From a virus: a stretch of DNA of 64,000 nucleotides. Below, in pieces: positions 16,664-24,174 of this stretch (positions within the stretch are counted from its first letter, which is position 1; each line of letters starts with the position of its first letter). Under the pieces are notes generated by a model. The model worked only from the letters and a program-made list of their open reading frames with translations. It was not told where the DNA came from and did no database searches. Where the stretch lies: the IMG/VR virus record IMGVR_UViG_3300043446_000421, positions 4,220 to 68,219 of that record; one strand, written 5' to 3'. Position numbers and translations under genes: made by a program.

Positions 16664-16743
16664 TTGTTCTGGTGTGAGGGATTCATAAAAACAACCCGCA
16701 CCAGAACCTCAAGTAGTACTTGACCTTAACTTGGAGAACAATC

Positions 16744-17871
16744 ATGGCACAAGTAAGCACAGCAACCCGCGTCACTCTGGACGAACTAGTTCAGGCCGTA
16801 TCAACCGTAGGTAACAAGCGCACCATCATTGCAAGGGGCGAGCCGGGCATCGGCAAGTCGTGGACGATGAAGGCACTGGCTTCAAAATTCCCGGGGCATA
16901 AGGCCGTCACAGTAGACTGCGCCCGACTGCTCGATCAGGGTGACTTCTGGGCGATGTATCTGGAAGACAAGGCGGACGGTGGCAAGGTGGCACGTCAGGC
17001 ACTGTTGGACATGTTCGACTTCGATGCCACGCAACCCATGCTCCTACTGCTTGATGAGATCGGCAAGGGTAACAAGGCGGTGATGAATGTCCTGCTGACG
17101 GTGATCTTTGACCGGCGTATCGGTGACCGCCACCTGCACCCTGACTCTATTGTGTATGCGACAACTAACCTGACGGCGGACGGGGTGGGTGACTTCCTGC
17201 CAGCCCATGCTCGCAGCCGCGCCATCACAGTGGAGATCAAGAAACCTATCGTGGGCATCAACCCGGTGACAGGCGAGGTGGCCAAGGGTTCGTTCGGTGA
17301 GTTCATGTTGAAGAACAATTTCGACTCGGCGCTAGTGGCATGGTGCGTCCGCAACCCAAGCTGCATGGACAGTTATCGTGATTGCCCGAATGACAAGGAC
17401 TGGACTAACCCTTGGGCGTTCCACCCAACGAAGGGGGCTGAGATGTACTTCTGCCCACGCAGCGCCCATGCCTGTGATGACATATTGAAAGAGCGCGAGG
17501 TCAACGGTGACCGCCTGACCATGAGCCTGTTGGCCGGTGCTGCGGGTGAGTCGTTCGCTCGAGATTTCTCGGCCTTCCTGATGGTCAAGGACAAGCTGAC
17601 TACGGTTCCGGCAATTGTCGCTGACCCCAAGGGTGCGGCGTTGCCCCCGGCGGGTGATGCGGTGTCCCACTGCGTGATGGTGCAGCAGTTGGTGCAGCAC
17701 GTGAACAAGGAAACCATCGAGCCGTTCGTCACCTACATGCAGCGTATGGGCAGTGAGTGGCAAGCCATGTTCGGGCGCAGCGTCATTGCATCCGAGAACA
17801 AGCAAGAGGTTGCCATCAAGTGCGAAGCGTTCCGCAACTGGGCGATTGCGAATCAGTGGATGTTTTCTTAA
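16744..17871 (+). CDS. MoxR-like AAA+ ATPase
   Basis: GEPGIGKS Walker A, LLLLDEIGK Walker B, YATTN sensor I, PRS sensor II. Confidence 0.85.
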   Translation: MAQVSTATRVTLDELVQAVSTVGNKRTIIARGEPGIGKSWTMKALASKFPGHKAVTVDCARLLDQGDFWAMYLEDKADGGKVARQALLDMFDFDATQPMLLLLDEIGKGNKAVMNVLLTVIFDRRIGDRHLHPDSIVYATTNLTADGVGDFLPAHARSRAITVEIKKPIVGINPVTGEVAKGSFGEFMLKNNFDSALVAWCVRNPSCMDSYRDCPNDKDWTNPWAFHPTKGAEMYFCPRSAHACDDILKEREVNGDRLTMSLLAGAAGESFARDFSAFLMVKDKLTTVPAIVADPKGAALPPAGDAVSHCVMVQQLVQHVNKETIEPFVTYMQRMGSEWQAMFGRSVIASENKQEVAIKCEAFRNWAIANQWMFS

Positions 17872-17880
17872 GGGGGATGT

Positions 17881-19083
17881 ATGAGCTTCTCTGCTGAACA
17901 ACTTTTGACACGTGCCACGGTGTGGCTCATGGAGTACCCGCCGACTTGCGCCCTGTCCGGGGTCATGTTGATGGGCAAGACCGAGGTCAATGACCGAGTG
18001 CCTACGGCCTGTACCAACGGACGTGATGAGTTCTACGGACGCAAGTTTGTGGAAGGTCTGACCGAGCCAGAGGTACGGTTCCTGAAGACGCATGAGTCGT
18101 TCCATAAGATCAAGATGGACTTGCTCACGTGGAGACATCTTTATGATGAGAACCCCAAGTTGGCCAACATGGCGAGTGACTACGTCAACAACCTGATGAT
18201 CTGGGAACTTGACCCGACTGAGCAGTACCTGAAGATGCCCAAGGGTGGGCTGTTGGACAAGCGGTTCAAGGGTATGGATACCGGCGAGGTGTACGCCTTA
18301 CTCAAACAGGAGAAACAAAATGAACAAGGCAATGGTGATGGCCAAGCAGGGCAAGGCTCGGGCGGTGGAGCGGGTGATCAACCGGAAGGCTTCGATGAGC
18401 ATGACTGGGAAGGTGCGAGCGCCCTTTCGGACGCGGAACAAAAGCTGCTTGCGGAAGAAATCGACCAAGCCTTAAGACAGGGAAAGATGTATGCCGAACG
18501 GATGAACGGCACGCTGCCCCAAGCTATCGAAGCACGTCTCGCCCCAGAGGTACGGTGGCAGGATGAGTTGGCTGAGTTCGTATCTTCTCTGTGCAGTGGC
18601 TCGGACTTGCCGTCTTTCCGCAAGCGTAACCGCCGCCGCATGGAGTCGGAAATCATCTACCCAACGTTGATCACTGAGCGCCTTGGCAAGCTGGTGATAG
18701 GTATCGATACCTCGGGTTCGATCTTCGGTAGTGACATGCTGTCTAGTTTTATGGCGGCACTGCACAACTTGTGTGAGGTTGTGCGTCCTGAGTCGGTGGA
18801 CGTCCTGTATTGGGATAGCCATGTCGCGGGGCATGAGACGTACGATGAGAGTTCCTATGCCGGGCTGCTGATCTCAGCCAGTCCAGTGGGTGGCGGTGGT
18901 ACGGAACCTCAATGCGTGGTGGATTACATGCAGCAGAAGCACCTGCGTCCTGATGCGGTGGTGATGTTGACGGACGGCGAAGTGTCATCGTGGGGCAAAG
19001 GTTGGACTGCACCCACCCTGTGGTGCATCACCGACAGGCGCGTCAAGTCGGCGGTGGGTAGATCGGTTCACATCAAACTATAA
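17881..19083 (+). CDS. vWA domain + putative metallopeptidase (DUF2201-like)
   Basis: TACTNG, HESFH (HExxH), IDTSGS MIDAS, GGGGT, MLTDG. Confidence 0.85.
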   Translation: MSFSAEQLLTRATVWLMEYPPTCALSGVMLMGKTEVNDRVPTACTNGRDEFYGRKFVEGLTEPEVRFLKTHESFHKIKMDLLTWRHLYDENPKLANMASDYVNNLMIWELDPTEQYLKMPKGGLLDKRFKGMDTGEVYALLKQEKQNEQGNGDGQAGQGSGGGAGDQPEGFDEHDWEGASALSDAEQKLLAEEIDQALRQGKMYAERMNGTLPQAIEARLAPEVRWQDELAEFVSSLCSGSDLPSFRKRNRRRMESEIIYPTLITERLGKLVIGIDTSGSIFGSDMLSSFMAALHNLCEVVRPESVDVLYWDSHVAGHETYDESSYAGLLISASPVGGGGTEPQCVVDYMQQKHLRPDAVVMLTDGEVSSWGKGWTAPTLWCITDRRVKSAVGRSVHIKL

Positions 19084-19116
19084 ACATCAAGTACTACTTT
19101 AACTTGGAGAACTATC

Positions 19117-19995
19117 ATGGCCGTACAAAACTCTGCAATTCTGGTTGACCTCAACATCTCGGCGTGGACTGGACGCAAACTGGATAAGCGCGTCTCAGAA
19201 GAGATCGATGCAAGCAAGGGCACCAAAGCCAAGGGCGGCAACTATCACAAGCACCTGCTGGCTGGCACTGACAAGCTTGATGCTGTACAGAAGATCGTCT
19301 CGGCGGTGCGTGTCTGGCACTATGAGCAAACGCTGCCTTGGTCTGACGGTGGCTCGCGCCTACTGCCAATGAAGAACTTCTTTGAGTACAAGCGCACCCT
19401 GTCCATGTTCGAGGCGCAGTTCAAACAGGCGGTGGATGAGATGTTGACTGAGTACCCCACGTTGGTGACGGCGGCTGCCTTCCAGTTGGGTGCGCTGTTC
19501 AATCGCAATGACTATCCCGATGTGGAGACCATCAAGGGCAAGTTCCGCTTCAGCTACGTCTTCATGCCTGTACCTACGGCGGGTGACTTTCGCATCCAAG
19601 CAGCGGACGATGCAATCGCGGAGTTGCAAGCGCAAGCGGAAGAACACATGAACAAGCGCGTCAATGACGCTATGAAAGATATCTGGACAAGGCTGCATAC
19701 CTGCCTGACCCACATGTCGGACAAGCTGACTGACCTGCCCACGCCACGTGTACTGAAGGACGGCACTGAGGTGTACTCGCAGGTGTTCCGTGACTCACTG
19801 GTAAACAACGCTGTAGAACTATGCGGCCTGTTGACCAAGCTCAACGTGACCGATGACCCTAACCTCGAGCAAGCACGACACAAGCTGGAGGAAGCGATCA
19901 CCGGTGTGACTGCGGAGGGTCTACGTGCTGACGATGGTGAGCGTGATCACCTGAAGAAGCAGGTCGATGAGATCTTGAAAGCGTTCGCATTCTAA
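19117..19995 (+). CDS. DUF3150-like protein
   Basis: LVDLNISAWTGRKLD...TLPWSDGGSRLLP...FNRNDYP; usual partner of AAA/vWA. Confidence 0.65.
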   Translation: MAVQNSAILVDLNISAWTGRKLDKRVSEEIDASKGTKAKGGNYHKHLLAGTDKLDAVQKIVSAVRVWHYEQTLPWSDGGSRLLPMKNFFEYKRTLSMFEAQFKQAVDEMLTEYPTLVTAAAFQLGALFNRNDYPDVETIKGKFRFSYVFMPVPTAGDFRIQAADDAIAELQAQAEEHMNKRVNDAMKDIWTRLHTCLTHMSDKLTDLPTPRVLKDGTEVYSQVFRDSLVNNAVELCGLLTKLNVTDDPNLEQARHKLEEAITGVTAEGLRADDGERDHLKKQVDEILKAFAF

Positions 19996-21880: not shown

Positions 21881-22041
21881 TGAGATATGAAGTGTATGAC
21901 GAGGAGGGAAAATTGTTCCGCAAGTTCTGGGATAGACACGAAGCAGAGAAGTTTATGCAGCAAGGCTGGAAGCTGGTAACAAAGGCCAAACACAAAGAGC
22001 CTAAGCCGACAGTCGAGAAGTTCGGCGAAGCACGTTGGTAA
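21880..22041 (+). CDS. Hypothetical protein (53 aa)
   Basis: Manual ORF MRYEVYDEEGKLFRKFW...; GGAGG RBS; overlaps upstream stop. Confidence 0.55.
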   Translation: MRYEVYDEEGKLFRKFWDRHEAEKFMQQGWKLVTKAKHKEPKPTVEKFGEARW

Positions 22042-22065
22042 TTAACTTAACCTTGGAGAATCAAA

Positions 22066-22731
22066 ATGGATATGAAAGTCAAAGAAACCGCAGTTGTTAT
22101 TTCCGCACCCAAGTTCAACACCGTTGAAGTTGTACTACAGGGCACCGCCCCGCTGGTAGTTGCGCGGTTCAGCAAGAAAGCCGAGTTGATGGCGAAGATG
22201 GCCGAGGGCAGCAGCGCCAAGAGCAAAAAGGAGCGCACCGCCCGTGACTACGATAAAGAAGCAGAAGATGCGCGGTATCGCGCCCCTGAAGGTTGGGAAG
22301 GTGTCAATGCTGCGGCCTTCCGTGCGGGCATGATCAGTGCCTGTCGGCTGGTGGGGTTCAAGATGACGCTGGCAAAGTTGTCTGTGTTTATCGAAGCTGA
22401 TGGGTTTGATAAGCAGGATGGGATTCCGTTGGTGCGCGTCTACGGCAAGAGCGAAACCTTTACCGCACATACCCGCAATGCGACAGGTGTGGTTGATGTA
22501 CGTAGCCGCCCAATGTATCGCGAGTGGGCTATCAAGCTGCGCGTTCGTTTTGATGCGGATCAGTTCAATGTACAAGACGTTTATAACTTGATCGCCCGTG
22601 TGGGTGGGCAGGTGGGCTTGTGCGAGGGTCGTCCAGATTCCAAATCGTCCGCAGGTTGTGGCTTTGGTACGTTTGAGGTGGTGCCGAATGATCGTCAGAA
22701 AGAAGTCACAAAGAAATTCGGCATTAAGTAA
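22066..22731 (+). CDS. Stand-alone RAMP/Cas7-like RNA-binding protein (Vipr-like effector)
   Basis: N-terminal strand VEVVLQGTAPLVV, 'GVNAAAFRAGMISA' helix, RSRPMYREWAIKLRVRF, and C-terminal Gly-rich loop GGQVGLCEGRP...GCGFGTFEV, the RAMP/Cas7 signature; immediately followed by the array. Confidence 0.7.
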   Translation: MDMKVKETAVVISAPKFNTVEVVLQGTAPLVVARFSKKAELMAKMAEGSSAKSKKERTARDYDKEAEDARYRAPEGWEGVNAAAFRAGMISACRLVGFKMTLAKLSVFIEADGFDKQDGIPLVRVYGKSETFTAHTRNATGVVDVRSRPMYREWAIKLRVRFDADQFNVQDVYNLIARVGGQVGLCEGRPDSKSSAGCGFGTFEVVPNDRQKEVTKKFGIK

Positions 22732-22733
22732 CT

Positions 22734-23232
22734 AGGCAGGTGGGGCTTGGCTGCGCCCGGTATGGTAGTGCTGGGTGCGGCGCGGTAATGCAAGGCAGGT
22801 ATGGATTGGCAACGTACGGATAGGTATGGCGCGGTTCGGTTCGGTAAGGTTCAGTAAGGCAGGTACGGTGTGGGCAGGTGAGTTGTGGTCTGGTCCGTTC
22901 CGGCAGGGTAAGGCAGGTGTGGCTCGGTTCGTCGCGGCACCGTCAGGATCGTTCGGGTAAGGTAAGGTAAGGCAGGTATGGCGCGGCTAGTTCGCGCAAG
23001 GTACGGTTGGTTCCGGTGTAGTAAGGCAGGTCAGGCGAGGTTTGTCGGAGTATGGTGCGGCGCGATGCGGTTTGGCTCACTACGGTAAGGCAGGTGGCGT
23101 TAGGCGGCGCAAGGTGGCGTTAGGTGTGGCGCAGTAAGGCAGGTGAGGTGTCGCACGGTGTGGTGCGTCCGGGTGGGGTGAGGCAGGTACGTTGAGGCGA
23201 GGTGGGGTTTGGTGAGGTCAGTTAAGGCAGGT
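22734..23232 (+). ncRNA. Guide-like array: 10 AGGCAGGT boundaries enclosing 9 units of phased GGY-NN pentamers
   Basis: Boundaries end at 22741, 22800, 22864, 22918, 22977, 23031, 23095, 23144, 23188, 23232 (periods 59,64,54,59,54,64,49,44,44 = 5n+4). 61 of 91 triplets are exact GGY; all but one of the rest differ by one base. The repeat structure is directly observed; RNA function is inferred. Confidence 0.8.
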
Positions 23233-23252
23233 AAATAACTTAGGAGAATGAA

Positions 23253-23732
23253 ATGACAACAGAAACAATGAAAGCAGAACGGAAGTTTCTTGAGAAGCTG
23301 GCAAAGAACAAGGGCGGTATGTTGCTGGTCGATGATGTACTGGCTGTTGCAGCAGACCCAATGTGCGTATTGCACAAACACTTTCAGTGGGATAACACCA
23401 AAGCGGCTGAAGCTTATCGCAAAATGCAAGCGCGGCAGCTTATCCAGAAATGCACTGTGACTATTGAGAAAGCCCCTGACGTACAGATTCGCGCATTCGT
23501 CAGTCTGGCAAGCGATCAGTATGCAGGTGGTGGGTACCGCATGACCGCAGACGTGTTATCAGACAACGATCTCAAAGCAGAACTGCTGCATGACATGATG
23601 GTGACCCTTACCAAGTGGAAGAAGCAGATCAATTTGTTGGACAAGGAAACCGCCGCCATCATTGATACGTTAGAAGATGTTGTGCGTACCAAAGTAGGTA
23701 GTAGGCAAGCAGCCGTTCGGAGCAGGCCGTGA
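23253..23732 (+). CDS. Hypothetical protein linked to the RAMP-like gene/array
   Basis: AGGAG RBS right after the last repeat; LLVDDVLAVAADP..VLHKHFQWDNTKAAEAYRKMQARQLI...RAFVS. Confidence 0.75.
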   Translation: MTTETMKAERKFLEKLAKNKGGMLLVDDVLAVAADPMCVLHKHFQWDNTKAAEAYRKMQARQLIQKCTVTIEKAPDVQIRAFVSLASDQYAGGGYRMTADVLSDNDLKAELLHDMMVTLTKWKKQINLLDKETAAIIDTLEDVVRTKVGSRQAAVRSRP

Positions 23733-23911
23733 AACCTCCTGAGATCGTGGCCGTAGCGTTCTACATAACCATCGCCCTGTTCTCGCTGTACTACGGCATG
23801 AAGGTCATATCAGCGGAGCCGCAGTTGATGTGCGGTGTGGCAGAGATCAGCCCGGACTTTAGCGCAGCAGACAGGGCGCGGTGCAGACAGATGAGGGGGC
23901 ATAAGTTATGA
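23729..23911 (+). CDS. Small membrane protein
   Basis: N-terminal TM; CGVAEISPDF...CR. Confidence 0.55.
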   Translation: MKPPEIVAVAFYITIALFSLYYGMKVISAEPQLMCGVAEISPDFSAADRARCRQMRGHKL

Positions 23912-24174
23912 ATGATCTTGCTTTGTATGAGTTGGGTCTTGCCATGCCTGTTTGCGCGGTATGCAACAAGCCAGTCGATAGGGTTGAGTCTATGTATGAC
24001 CCCAACTATGACGGCAAAATATTCAGGGTTCACTGCCACGGCAAAGTAGAGCAGCAGATTCTTGGCGCTTACACCATGATGGACGCAAAACAAATCACGT
24101 TTGGCAAAGCATTTGATGCCCCAGCACTAGAACGCATGAACAAAGCCGCTGAAGATAACGGGGAGGAGTTATGA
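23908..24174 (+). CDS. Zn-binding hypothetical protein
   Basis: CAVC...VHCHG. Confidence 0.6.
   Translation: MNDLALYELGLAMPVCAVCNKPVDRVESMYDPNYDGKIFRVHCHGKVEQQILGAYTMMDAKQITFGKAFDAPALERMNKAAEDNGEEL

What the first reader, a model, noticed from the sequence alone, without database searches (positions are those of the whole stretch)
22734..23232. Array grammar: 5n+4 units with a constant GGY scaffold and variable dinucleotides
Each unit parses exactly as (GGY-NN)x8-12 + GGCA, giving lengths 59,64,54,59,54,64,49,44,44; length changes occur only in steps of 5. NN strings: U1 GG TT TG CC AT AG TG GC GC AA AA; U2 AT TT AA AC TA AT GC TC TC AA TC AA; U3 AC GT CA GA GT CT CC CC AG AA; U4 GT TC TC GC AC CA TC CG AA AA AA; U5 AT GC TA CG AA AC TG CC GT AA; U6 CA GA TT GG AT GC GC GC TT TC AC AA; U7 GG TA GG AA GG TA GT GC AA; U8 GA GT AC GT GC CG GG GA; U9 AC GA GA GG TT GA CA AA. 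The units are unrelated at NN positions while phase is kept across all 91 pentamers. That pattern suggests information stored in the NN positions rather than simple satellite decay. The last NN is AA in 8 of 9 units, so AAGGCAGGT may be a processing handle.
Basis: seen in the sequence. Interest (0 to 1): 0.9.

Follow-up and report, generated by a model that had tools for sequence, protein, structure and literature searches.

The report
Phage VIPR guide-RNA array
This stretch is the guide-RNA array of a VIPR system, a CRISPR-like phage weapon first described in 2026, so it is real but already explained; one guide spells a conserved motif of another mobile element's DNA polymerase gene.

Summary
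Window 22734-23232 parses into nine units of 59, 64, 54, 59, 54, 64, 49, 44 and 44 nt, 91 in-phase pentamers in all. The scaffold is degenerate rather than constant: 61 of 91 triplets are exact GGY.

The array is a tail-less "staggered" vrRNA array of a VIPR system, described in 2026 bioRxiv preprints. It lies between a Vipr gene (22066-22731) and a conserved partner gene (23253-23732). The Vipr call rests on a profile hit to SUSP1 Vipr (E 2e-7) and a Cas7/Csm3-like fold.

All 26 related phage loci with downstream DNA carry the same grammar, and 289 of 304 phase breaks are 4-nt GCA|GG steps.

New here: unit 6, decoded by the published 1-nt-skip rule, matched 90 bacterial genome contigs. In 79 of 79 testable hits it reads, in codon register, motif A of a family-A DNA polymerase. 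That polymerase sits in a 3-gene cassette that often lies beside integrases. Two independent guides from relatives hit the same cassette.

This scan has already met VIPR arrays on other DNA: 503 notes in at least 383 genomes. Verdict: new member of a known kind, modest interest.

The parts
22066..22731 (+). vipr gene: 221-aa stand-alone RAMP (Cas7-like) protein
   Evidence: A profile of 62 homologues hits PDB 36pp_D 'SUSP1 Vipr protein' at E 2.1e-7, profile 23-195 against chain 4-180. The single sequence gives E 0.0043. The AF2 model has pLDDT 92.2 and pTM 0.87. Top Foldseek hits in the PDB are Csm3/Cas7 chains: 8do6_E at E 1e-5, and 46 hits at E <= 1e-3. The only library family is PHROG 4652, function unknown.
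22734..23232 (+). staggered vrRNA array: nine guide units, (GGY-NN)n + GGCA, each overlapping the next by 1 nt if the last repeat is read as GGCAG
   Evidence: No Rfam family, including hammerhead. It folds no better than shuffles: z = +1.71, and 96 of 100 shuffles fold at least as well.
22739..22797 (+). unit 1 (59 nt, 11 NN)
   Evidence: Orthologous units occur in L001/L005 and L011.
22798..22861 (+). unit 2 (64 nt, 12 NN)
   Evidence: The decoded motif (22 specified bases) has 0 hits in viral contigs. It has 1 hit in metagenome contigs (L122 919-950), in frame with a 160-aa ORF of no known family. A single hit is a candidate only.
22862..22915 (+). unit 3 (54 nt, 10 NN)
22916..22974 (+). 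unit 4 (59 nt, 11 NN)
   Evidence: An ortholog in L001 matches 17/18 NN.
22975..23028 (+). unit 5 (54 nt, 10 NN)
23029..23092 (+). unit 6 (64 nt, 12 NN): guide matched to motif A of a family-A DNA polymerase in an integrase-linked cassette
   Evidence: Its guide family is the most widespread, present in 12 of 27 arrays. The decoded 10-dinucleotide core has 90 exact hits in genome contigs. In 79 of 79 hits with enough flank the frame is open and reads ..D[WYF]xQQE[FL]GIAAA[LF]SxD... The gene is PF00476 in both loci tested.
23093..23141 (+). unit 7 (49 nt, 9 NN)
   Evidence: Orthologs in L016 (16/16 NN) and L017 (17/18 NN).
23142..23185 (+). unit 8 (44 nt, 8 NN)
   Evidence: Orthologs in L001 and L002 match 15/16 NN.
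23186..23229 (+). unit 9 (44 nt, 8 NN)
23253..23732 (+). vap-like partner gene (159 aa), Shine-Dalgarno AGGAG at 23242-23246
   Evidence: An ortholog follows the array in 25 of 25 related loci that reach that far. Homologues sit directly after the vipr homologue in Mycobacterium phages, for example Donkeykong gp49/gp50. The only library family is PHROG 15946, function unknown. The AF2 model has pLDDT 82.2. It has no significant PDB match; the best hits are weak ones to winged-helix regulators at E >= 0.2.

Best explanation
The array is the guide-RNA (vrRNA) array of a phage-borne VIPR system, in its tail-less 'staggered' architecture.

Shown for the reference systems in the preprints:
- One Vipr protomer binds each pentamer.
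- Vipr buries the GGY triplet and presents the NN pair.
- The NN pairs together base-pair with double-stranded DNA while skipping every third target base.
- The bound complex silences transcription.

Inferred here by homology and anatomy:
- vipr, the array and the partner gene are read as one + strand transcript.
- The 4-nt GGCA step, which breaks the 5-nt register, delimits nine vrRNAs of 9-13 repeats.
- Each vrRNA is coated by the 221-aa Vipr and sent to a DNA target set by its 8-12 NN pairs.

Shown here by sequence: unit 6 and its orthologs in 11 related phages read codon positions 1-2 of motif A (QQEFGIAAALS) of a family-A DNA polymerase. That polymerase lies in a compact 3-gene cassette, often next to integrases, in many bacterial genomes.

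Inferred: the phage uses this guide to shut down the replication gene of a resident rival or parasitic element during infection.
For: 1. Protein.
- Profile hit to the solved SUSP1 Vipr at E 2.1e-7, nearly full length.
- A confident model whose best structural matches are CRISPR backbone RAMPs, Csm3/Cas7.
- SUSP1 contact residues R138 and R179 align with R148 (conserved in at least 90% of 62 homologues) and invariant R189. D177 aligns with E187.

2. RNA grammar.
- 91 in-phase pentamers with information only at positions 1-3.
- This is the GGY/NN grammar of vrRNAs, 9-16 repeats each.
- The 5n+4 lengths equal the preprint's 'staggered arrays ... 1 nt overlapping'.

3. Conservation.
- All 26 related loci with downstream DNA carry such an array after the same gene.
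- With all irregular phase changes given equal prior, 289 of 304 across 27 arrays (23 distinct) are 4-nt steps. At these steps G is 289/289, C 283/289 and A 287/289 before the break, and GG 289/289 after it.
- Staggered arrays also flank the homologues in Cyanophage Cy-LDV1 and Mycobacterium phage Donkeykong.

4. Information in NN.
- In orthologous unit pairs chosen on pentamers 1-5, the held-out pentamers show scaffold mismatch 140/705 against NN mismatch 50/470. Fisher p = 2e-5, though the pairs are not independent.
- Random unit pairs show 0.32 scaffold and 0.73 NN mismatch.

5. Target.
- The one guide tested in genome contigs gave 90 exact hits. About 1 is expected for 20 specified bases in 596 Gb, by my arithmetic.
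- Of the 80 loci returned, 79 have enough flank, and all 79 have an open frame with conserved polymerase flanks. Skipped bases are variable (majority-base share 0.43), as wobble positions should be.

6. Independent guides of relatives hit the same loci.
- L009 5114-5157 hits 65 of 80 loci (shuffled guides 4.3 hits). It lies at +171 nt in 62 loci and spells VQYGMG, motif B.
- L023 4842-4895 hits 10 loci about 1.19 kb upstream (shuffled 0.0).

7. No self-target.
- The window's own polymerase has a different motif A.
- 196 guides against the window and the relatives' loci gave 496 hits at >= 80%, against 489.3 for shuffled guides.

8. Transcription unit.
- No promoter-like or + strand terminator-like site lies between vipr and the partner gene.
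Against: - No RNA ends, processing or Vipr binding were measured.
- The only RNA data are assembled contigs from two metatranscriptome runs of one study. They hold exact copies of units 1 and 4 and cover the array more than the flanking genes. Contigs cannot show transcription, and DNA may be present in such libraries.
- Only 1 of the 9 window guides has a well-supported target. Unit 2 has a single hit. The other seven were searched only against local sequence.
- The unit-6 motif has 0 exact hits in 2.9 million viral contigs, so the target element is not a recognised virus and its relation to this phage is unknown.
- Exact matches in many phyla show a conserved motif, not that the phage meets those hosts.
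- SUSP1 W178, which stacks on G2, aligns with an invariant glycine here.
- A third of the scaffold triplets depart from GGY, so RNA recognition may differ in detail.
- The VIPR type cannot be assigned because the preprint's supplementary tables were closed.
Confidence: 0.93

Rival explanations
1. The array is an RNA or single-stranded DNA track for an oligomeric binding protein that reads a triplet every 5 nt, as TRAP does on the trp leader. It would act as a regulatory leader or sponge for the downstream gene, and NN would carry no address.
For: This was my first reading, from the 3+2 periodicity and the 8-13 repeats per unit. The array ends at the Shine-Dalgarno sequence of the downstream gene.
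Against: The adjacent protein is a Vipr/Cas7-like RAMP, not a TRAP-like ring. NN is conserved more than the scaffold between orthologous units. The NN of unit 6 spells a coding motif in register in 79 of 79 hits. A pure scaffold model predicts neither result.
Confidence: 0.03
2. The array acts at the DNA level. It would be a G-rich non-template strand serving as an R-loop or G-quadruplex replication origin, or as protein-binding iterons within the replication module.
For: The array sits in the replication gene block, with polymerase, helicase and primase downstream. GC skew is strong, 0.24. GG runs every 5 nt could form two-tier quadruplexes.
Against: Strict 5-nt phase with a fixed 4-nt step is not needed for R-loops or quadruplexes, and 30 of 91 triplets lack GG. 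The same grammar sits beside vipr homologues in unrelated phage backbones, including temperate cyanophage and mycobacteriophage immunity or early regions. It therefore travels with vipr, not with an origin. The codon-register target matches remain unexplained by this model.
Confidence: 0.02
3. The array is a decaying pentanucleotide microsatellite with no function.
For: GGTAA runs occur at unit ends, for example 22956-22972.
Against: The phase and the GCA|GG punctuation are kept in 27 arrays whose flanking Vipr protein differs by up to 27%. NN is at random-like composition while positions 1-3 are constrained. Decay would erase both.
Confidence: 0.01

Closest known systems
VIPR systems with 'staggered' vrRNA arrays (bioRxiv 10.64898/2026.04.26.720920; main text and the legend of fig. 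S18, seen as text only)
   Same: A stand-alone Vipr RAMP gene plus a partner gene. GGY/NN pentamer repeats. Successive vrRNAs offset so that the end of one is the start of the next with a 1-nt overlap, which equals unit lengths of 5n+4. A phage carrier.
   Different: The preprint states that only the ribozyme-interspersed and single-vrRNA architectures were confirmed by small-RNA sequencing, not the staggered one. I could not see the figure or the tables, so I do not know which of the seven types this clade is, or whether it is in their 667 loci (taken from NCBI nr). The natural targets described in the main text are for type II, III and V systems. The word 'polymerase' does not occur in that text.
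Type II VIPR of Escherichia phage SUSP1 and the Pseudomonas fulva prophage (same preprint; cryo-EM in 10.64898/2026.04.26.720927; biology in 10.64898/2026.10.15.759431)
   Same: A homologous protein. The same repeat code. Targets read at codon positions 1-2 with the wobble base skipped. Targets are a resident integrative element, there the recombinase gene of a phage satellite.
   Different: SUSP1 vrRNAs are about 100 nt and end in an invariable tail of about 40 nt with a pseudoknot that caps the filament. Here there is no tail, no fold signal and no spacer between units. SUSP1 has 1 + 3 vrRNAs; this window has 9 in one block, and relatives have 6 to 21 parsed segments per array, edge pieces included. 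Protein similarity is remote: E 0.0043 for the single sequence, and no tblastn hit to SUSP1 among INPHARED phages at E <= 0.01. W178 of SUSP1 aligns with glycine.
Class 1 CRISPR backbone (Cas7/Csm3 on crRNA)
   Same: The fold of the protein. One protomer per fixed RNA step, with a thumb that breaks pairing periodically.
   Different: CRISPR uses a 6-nt step with 5 paired bases, not a 5-nt step with 2 paired. It has long repeat-spacer arrays with adaptation genes. In PADLOC-DB, 5 locus proteins, including Vipr and its partner, matched no defence model.
TRAP bound to the trp leader of Bacillus (recalled from memory, not from any call)
   Same: A protein oligomer reads a triplet every 5 nt, with about 9-11 repeats per site.
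   Different: The triplet is (G/U)AG, the protein is unrelated, the spacers carry no address, and it is not a DNA-targeting system.

Membership tests
VIPR system | Stand-alone Vipr protein: a minimal RAMP (RRM core, G-loop, thumb) homologous to described Vipr proteins | tested here: met
   Profile against the PDB hits SUSP1 Vipr at E 2.1e-7 over profile 23-195 and chain 4-180. AF2 model pLDDT 92.2. Foldseek top hits are Csm3/Cas7 at probability 1.00. A glycine-rich C-terminal loop has invariant G180, G184, G188, G197 and G201.
VIPR system | Residues that hold G1, G2 and Y3 in SUSP1 Vipr (R138, D177, W178, R179) | tested here: inconclusive
   In the HMMER alignment R138 aligns with R148, D177 with E187 and R179 with R189. 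W178 aligns with G188, which is invariant in 62 homologues. H17 and the helix-1 residues were not aligned.
VIPR system | vrRNA made of tandem 5-nt units, conserved GGY alternating with hypervariable NN (callers ask for at least 4 units; 9-16 are typical) | tested here: met
   Nine runs of 9-13 units with conformity 0.87-0.93. Information is 1.12, 1.33 and 0.88 bit at positions 1-3, against 0.09 and 0.06 at positions 4-5. Exact GGY in 61 of 91.
VIPR system | A vipr-accessory (vap) gene beside vipr | tested here: inconclusive
   A conserved 151-165-aa partner follows the array in 25 of 25 loci. It also follows vipr homologues in Mycobacterium phages. I could not compare it with vap1-6 because their sequences are in closed supplements. 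Its fold is unassigned.
VIPR system | NN pairs address DNA by the 1-nt-skip rule; natural targets are coding sequences of rival mobile elements, with the skipped base at wobble positions | tested here: met
   Unit 6: 90 exact hits, and 79 of 79 are in codon register on polymerase motif A with variable skipped bases. The cassette lies next to integrases in 19 + 9 loci and to a serine-recombinase domain protein in 5 of 80. Only one of the nine window guides is supported this well. Other skip lengths were not tried as a control.
VIPR system | vrRNAs are expressed, processed and co-purify with Vipr | not testable with these tools
   The only data are contigs from two metatranscriptome runs of one study. 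They contain units 1 and 4 exactly, and such contigs cannot show RNA ends or exclude DNA carry-over.
VIPR, staggered-array architecture | Adjacent vrRNAs overlap by 1 nt, with no tail or ribozyme between them | tested here: met
   Unit length = 5n+4 in 275 of 331 parsed segments; most of the rest are edge pieces. 289 of 304 phase breaks are 4-nt steps at GCA|GG. No Rfam hit in the window array or in 4 related loci.
VIPR type II (SUSP1 clade) | An invariable 3' tail of about 40 nt with a pseudoknot after each repeat tract | tested here: not met
   Units abut directly, and the conserved part is only about GGTAA-GGCA-GG. Folding gives z = +1.71. The locus is therefore not filed under type II.
CRISPR-Cas | An array of identical 23-50-nt repeats with unique spacers, plus adaptation genes (cas1/cas2) | tested here: not met
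   The only conserved element is 9-10 nt. Five locus proteins match no PADLOC model. Thirty window proteins scanned against PHROGs returned no family described as Cas.
Type III toxin-antitoxin (ToxIN-like) | Near-identical tandem RNA repeats before an endoribonuclease toxin gene | tested here: not met
   Units are unrelated outside the scaffold. The downstream protein has no PADLOC or Pfam match to such toxins.

The most novel reading that the evidence does not exclude
Two linked claims.

1. In tail-less staggered arrays the 4-nt GGCA step is itself the punctuation. It breaks the one-protomer-per-pentamer register, so it ends one Vipr filament and seeds the next. vrRNA ends would then be set by the protein register rather than by a folded handle or a ribozyme.

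2. This freshwater phage lineage keeps guides that read the catalytic motifs A and B of the polymerase gene of an undescribed, integrase-linked 3-gene cassette (about 203 aa, PolA of about 580 aa, about 136 aa). The cassette is found in many bacterial phyla but not in the viral-contig collection. It would be a self-replicating satellite or parasite of such phages. The guides would be mutation-proof because they skip wobble bases.
Probability: 0.3. Interest if true: 0.55.

Novelty: new member of a known kind. Interest (0 to 1): 0.3.

Why it matters
The kind is already in print: four 2026 preprints, seen. The finding does not open a new category.

Its value lies in three details.
- It documents the staggered, tail-less array type in a well-sampled natural series of 23 distinct arrays. 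The discovery preprint describes that type only in a supplementary legend and did not confirm it by RNA sequencing.
- It gives a sequence-only test that the address lies in NN: among orthologous guides, NN evolves more slowly than the scaffold.
- It names a natural target class that the discovery preprint's main text does not mention: the catalytic motifs of a family-A DNA polymerase on an integrase-linked cassette.

The target fits the published picture of VIPR as a weapon against resident mobile elements. It also points to a candidate new family of self-replicating integrative elements.

Tried and rejected
- First ideas before the literature hit were a TRAP-like ring track, an R-loop or quadruplex origin, a Shine-Dalgarno-like sponge, Chi-like sites and primase sites. 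All came from reading. I dropped them after and the tests listed under the rivals.
- Rfam: nothing beyond two chance-level rows outside the array at E 2.8 and 6.5, and nothing at gathering score in L030, L031, L007 and L006.
- blastn of 22000-24000 against INPHARED phages gave one weak coding match, to Cy-LDV1.
- Pfam and PADLOC gave nothing for the 221-aa protein.
- Local target search: 196 unique guides against the window and 29 loci gave 496 hits at >= 80% NN match, against 489.3 for shuffled guides. There is no self-targeting or relative-targeting signal. A 12/12 match of a short L014 guide to L001, L002, L004 and L005 is within chance for 12 bases.
- The unit-6 motif had 0 hits in viral contigs.
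- The unit-2 motif had 0 hits in viral contigs and one in metagenome contigs. That ORF and the two cassette partner proteins match no PHROG, and the two partners match no Pfam family.
- The fold of the partner protein has no PDB match at E <= 0.001.
- Reads: four runs were laid. X18 and X19 are probably DNA. X17 and X20 are RNA-library contigs and prove no transcript. Parts of the stretch without cover mean nothing.
- Units 1, 3-5 and 7-9 were not searched in public collections.
- Supplementary files of the preprints were closed (data S3 and S4, figs S16-S18). They may already list this clade, its type and its targets.
Full report
**What is there**

The window is bases 4220-68219 of a 68,219-bp virus record that is rated complete. 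It is a tailed phage. Terminase, portal, head and tail genes lie on the - strand. A + strand early and replication block holds a MoxR-like ATPase, a DUF2201 VWA protein, DUF3150, a family-A polymerase, a helicase and a primase.

The finding lies in a 521-nt gap between two + strand genes, 22066-22731 and 23253-23732. Ten AGGCAGGT sites bound nine units of 59, 64, 54, 59, 54, 64, 49, 44 and 44 nt. In that register the 91 pentamers carry information only at positions 1-3: G in 76, G in 79 and a pyrimidine in 87 of 91. Positions 4-5 carry 0.09 and 0.06 bit.

Its 'constant GGY' is not, because 61 of 91 triplets are exact GGY.

The periodicity is far beyond chance. There are 42 GG..GG pairs at lag 5, against 19.4 +/- 4.4 in 2000 shuffles, and the window median is 2. 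It is unique in the window.

**Relatives**

The 221-aa protein found 28 related viral contigs at 73-95% identity. All 26 that have DNA after the gene carry GGCAGG sites spaced mostly 44 to 69 nt apart.

I parsed the arrays with a Viterbi model in which every irregular phase change is equally likely. The 27 arrays (window included; 23 distinct) are 351-1013 nt long. Of 304 phase breaks, 289 are 4-nt steps. At these steps G is 289/289, C 283/289 and A 287/289 before the break, and GG is 289/289 after it. The step is usually preceded by GGTAA. Of 331 parsed segments, 275 have length 5n+4, and the rest are mostly edge pieces.

**Identification**

The 221-aa protein matched one solved structure, 36pp 'SUSP1 Vipr protein'. 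A text search on that name found three 2026 bioRxiv preprints on VIPR, Viral Interference Programmable Repeat systems. A later search added a fourth, which recovers such arrays from metagenomes.

What I read:
- Discovery preprint: the abstract, the whole Results, two Methods sections and passages that include supplementary figure legends.
- Cryo-EM preprint: the abstract and the first part of Results.
- Satellite preprint: the abstract and three sections.
- No supplements were available.

The preprints describe a stand-alone ancestral RAMP (Vipr) and vrRNAs of 9-16 GGY/NN pentamers. One protomer binds each repeat. The NN pairs read double-stranded DNA while skipping every third base. Binding silences transcription of rival mobile elements. 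There are seven types with various array architectures. One architecture is 'staggered arrays with overlapping vrRNAs', whose legend says that vrRNAs derive from 1-nt overlapping positions. Read with the last repeat as GGCAG, sharing its G with the next GGY, a unit of 5n+4 is exactly that.

**Membership tests**

- Protein homology. A 62-sequence profile, taken from 2013 relatives at E <= 0.001, hits SUSP1 Vipr at E 2.1e-7 over nearly its full length.
- Protein fold. The AF2 model is confident, at pLDDT 92.2. Its best PDB matches are Csm3/Cas7 backbone subunits. The Foldseek PDB copy ends on 2026-04-08, and no Vipr entry appeared among its listed hits.
- Contact residues. SUSP1 R138, D177 and R179 align with R148, E187 and R189. 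W178 aligns with an invariant glycine.
- Partner gene. It follows the array in 25 of 25 loci. It also follows vipr homologues in Mycobacterium phages. Its fold is unassigned.
- No tail or ribozyme. There is no Rfam hit, and folding is no better than in shuffles. The locus is therefore not type II. The type cannot be assigned without the supplements.
- Other carriers. Staggered arrays also flank the homologues in Cyanophage Cy-LDV1 and in Donkeykong, where the array lies inside an annotated 'hypothetical protein' CDS.

**Is the information in NN?**

The 259 regular units include 202 unique sequences. These fall into 144 families, 111 of them singletons, so turnover is high.

Orthologous units of different phages keep NN better than the scaffold. 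I chose pairs on the NN of pentamers 1-5 (69 pairs) and scored the held-out pentamers. Scaffold mismatch is 140/705 and NN mismatch is 50/470. The reverse design gives 26/384 against 5/256. Random pairs give 0.32 and 0.73. The pairs share ancestry, so the p value (2e-5) is only indicative.

**Targets**

Local searches found no self-target and no relative-target signal.

Unit 6 belongs to the most widespread guide family, present in 12 of 27 arrays.
- It had 0 exact hits in viral contigs.
- It had 90 exact hits in one-genome-per-species bacterial contigs. About 1 is expected by my arithmetic.
- In 79 of 79 returned hits with enough flank, the frame set by the guide is open. It reads ..AY[IV]D[WY]SQQE[FL]GIAAA[LF]SGD..M..AY.SGDPY...
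- The skipped bases are variable, with a majority-base share of 0.43.
- The gene is a family-A DNA polymerase of about 580 aa: PF00476 in both loci tested, with 74 of 80 loci in one BLAST cluster.

Guides that played no part in choosing these loci hit them too.
- L009 5114-5157 lands +171 nt downstream in 62 loci and spells VQYGMG.
- L023 4842-4895 lands about 1.19 kb upstream in 10 loci, in the neighbouring gene.
- By my count, 14 of the 23 distinct arrays carry at least one such guide.

The polymerase sits in a conserved trio with proteins of about 203 aa and about 136 aa that belong to no family. Tyrosine integrases lie next to it in 19 + 9 loci, and a serine-recombinase domain protein in 5. 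One locus also has a head-maturation protease.

The window's own polymerase is only 23% identical to the target polymerase and has a different motif A.

Unit 2 gave one exact hit, in frame with a 160-aa ORF of no family. It is a candidate only.

**Mechanism: shown and inferred**

Shown elsewhere, for the SUSP1 and P. fulva systems: filament assembly on GGY, gapped pairing and silencing.

Shown here by sequence: homology of the protein, the grammar, its conservation, the NN constraint and the codon-register match.

Inferred:
- The three parts are co-transcribed. No promoter-like or + strand terminator-like site lies between them.
- Units are delimited at the 4-nt step.
- The polymerase cassette is silenced in the phage's unknown host.

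An earlier follow-up in this scan was later marked down for reading breadth of motif matches as breadth of action (item 1). I therefore claim only the match and its register, not a panel that acts across phyla.

**Verdict**

This scan has already met it many times, with 503 notes in at least 383 genomes. This locus is a new member of a known kind. The polymerase-cassette target and the natural series of staggered arrays are the useful additions.

Noticed in passing
L031 2001-2387 (Mycobacterium phage Donkeykong, NC_051648.1 36870-37256): The annotated CDS gp48 'hypothetical protein' coincides with a GGY-NN staggered array. There are five runs of 9-12 units at conformity 0.96-1.0, directly upstream of the vipr homologue gp49. 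The CDS is probably a mis-call, and this group of mycobacteriophages (27 of 28 tblastn hit records, duplicate accessions included) carries VIPR.
   Followed up: partly
L030 3644-3825 and 4427-4583 (Cyanophage Cy-LDV1, BK059895.1): Two staggered arrays with a GGC-rich scaffold and GGCAGGC boundaries flank gene g33, downstream of a Vipr homologue that is 56% identical. A cI-like repressor and an excisionase lie nearby.
   Followed up: partly
L032-L111 (80 bacterial genome contigs): A conserved 3-gene cassette: a protein of about 203 aa, a family-A DNA polymerase of about 580 aa, and a protein of about 136 aa. It occurs in many phyla and often lies beside tyrosine integrases. Its motif-A pattern has no exact match in 2.9 million viral contigs. 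It may be an undescribed self-replicating integrative element.
   Followed up: partly
window 16720-19995: A MoxR-like AAA ATPase, a DUF2201 metallopeptidase/VWA protein and a DUF3150 protein lie in a row in the early region. PHROGs labels the second 'HNH endonuclease', which Pfam does not support.
   Followed up: no
L022 5198-5692: The ortholog of the 159-aa partner gene in this relative contains an in-frame stop codon. This may be a pseudogene or an assembly error.
   Followed up: no
window 22735-22800 and 22908-22967: Contigs from two metatranscriptome runs of one aquatic study contain units 1 and 4 without a single difference, joined to other, unrelated units. Single units therefore circulate as modules among arrays in nature.
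   Followed up: partly
L122 577-1059: A 160-aa ORF on a 1.4-kb metagenome contig holds the only exact match to the decoded unit-2 guide. The match is in codon register (ELEDAIYVLKM). The ORF has no PHROG match.
   Followed up: partly
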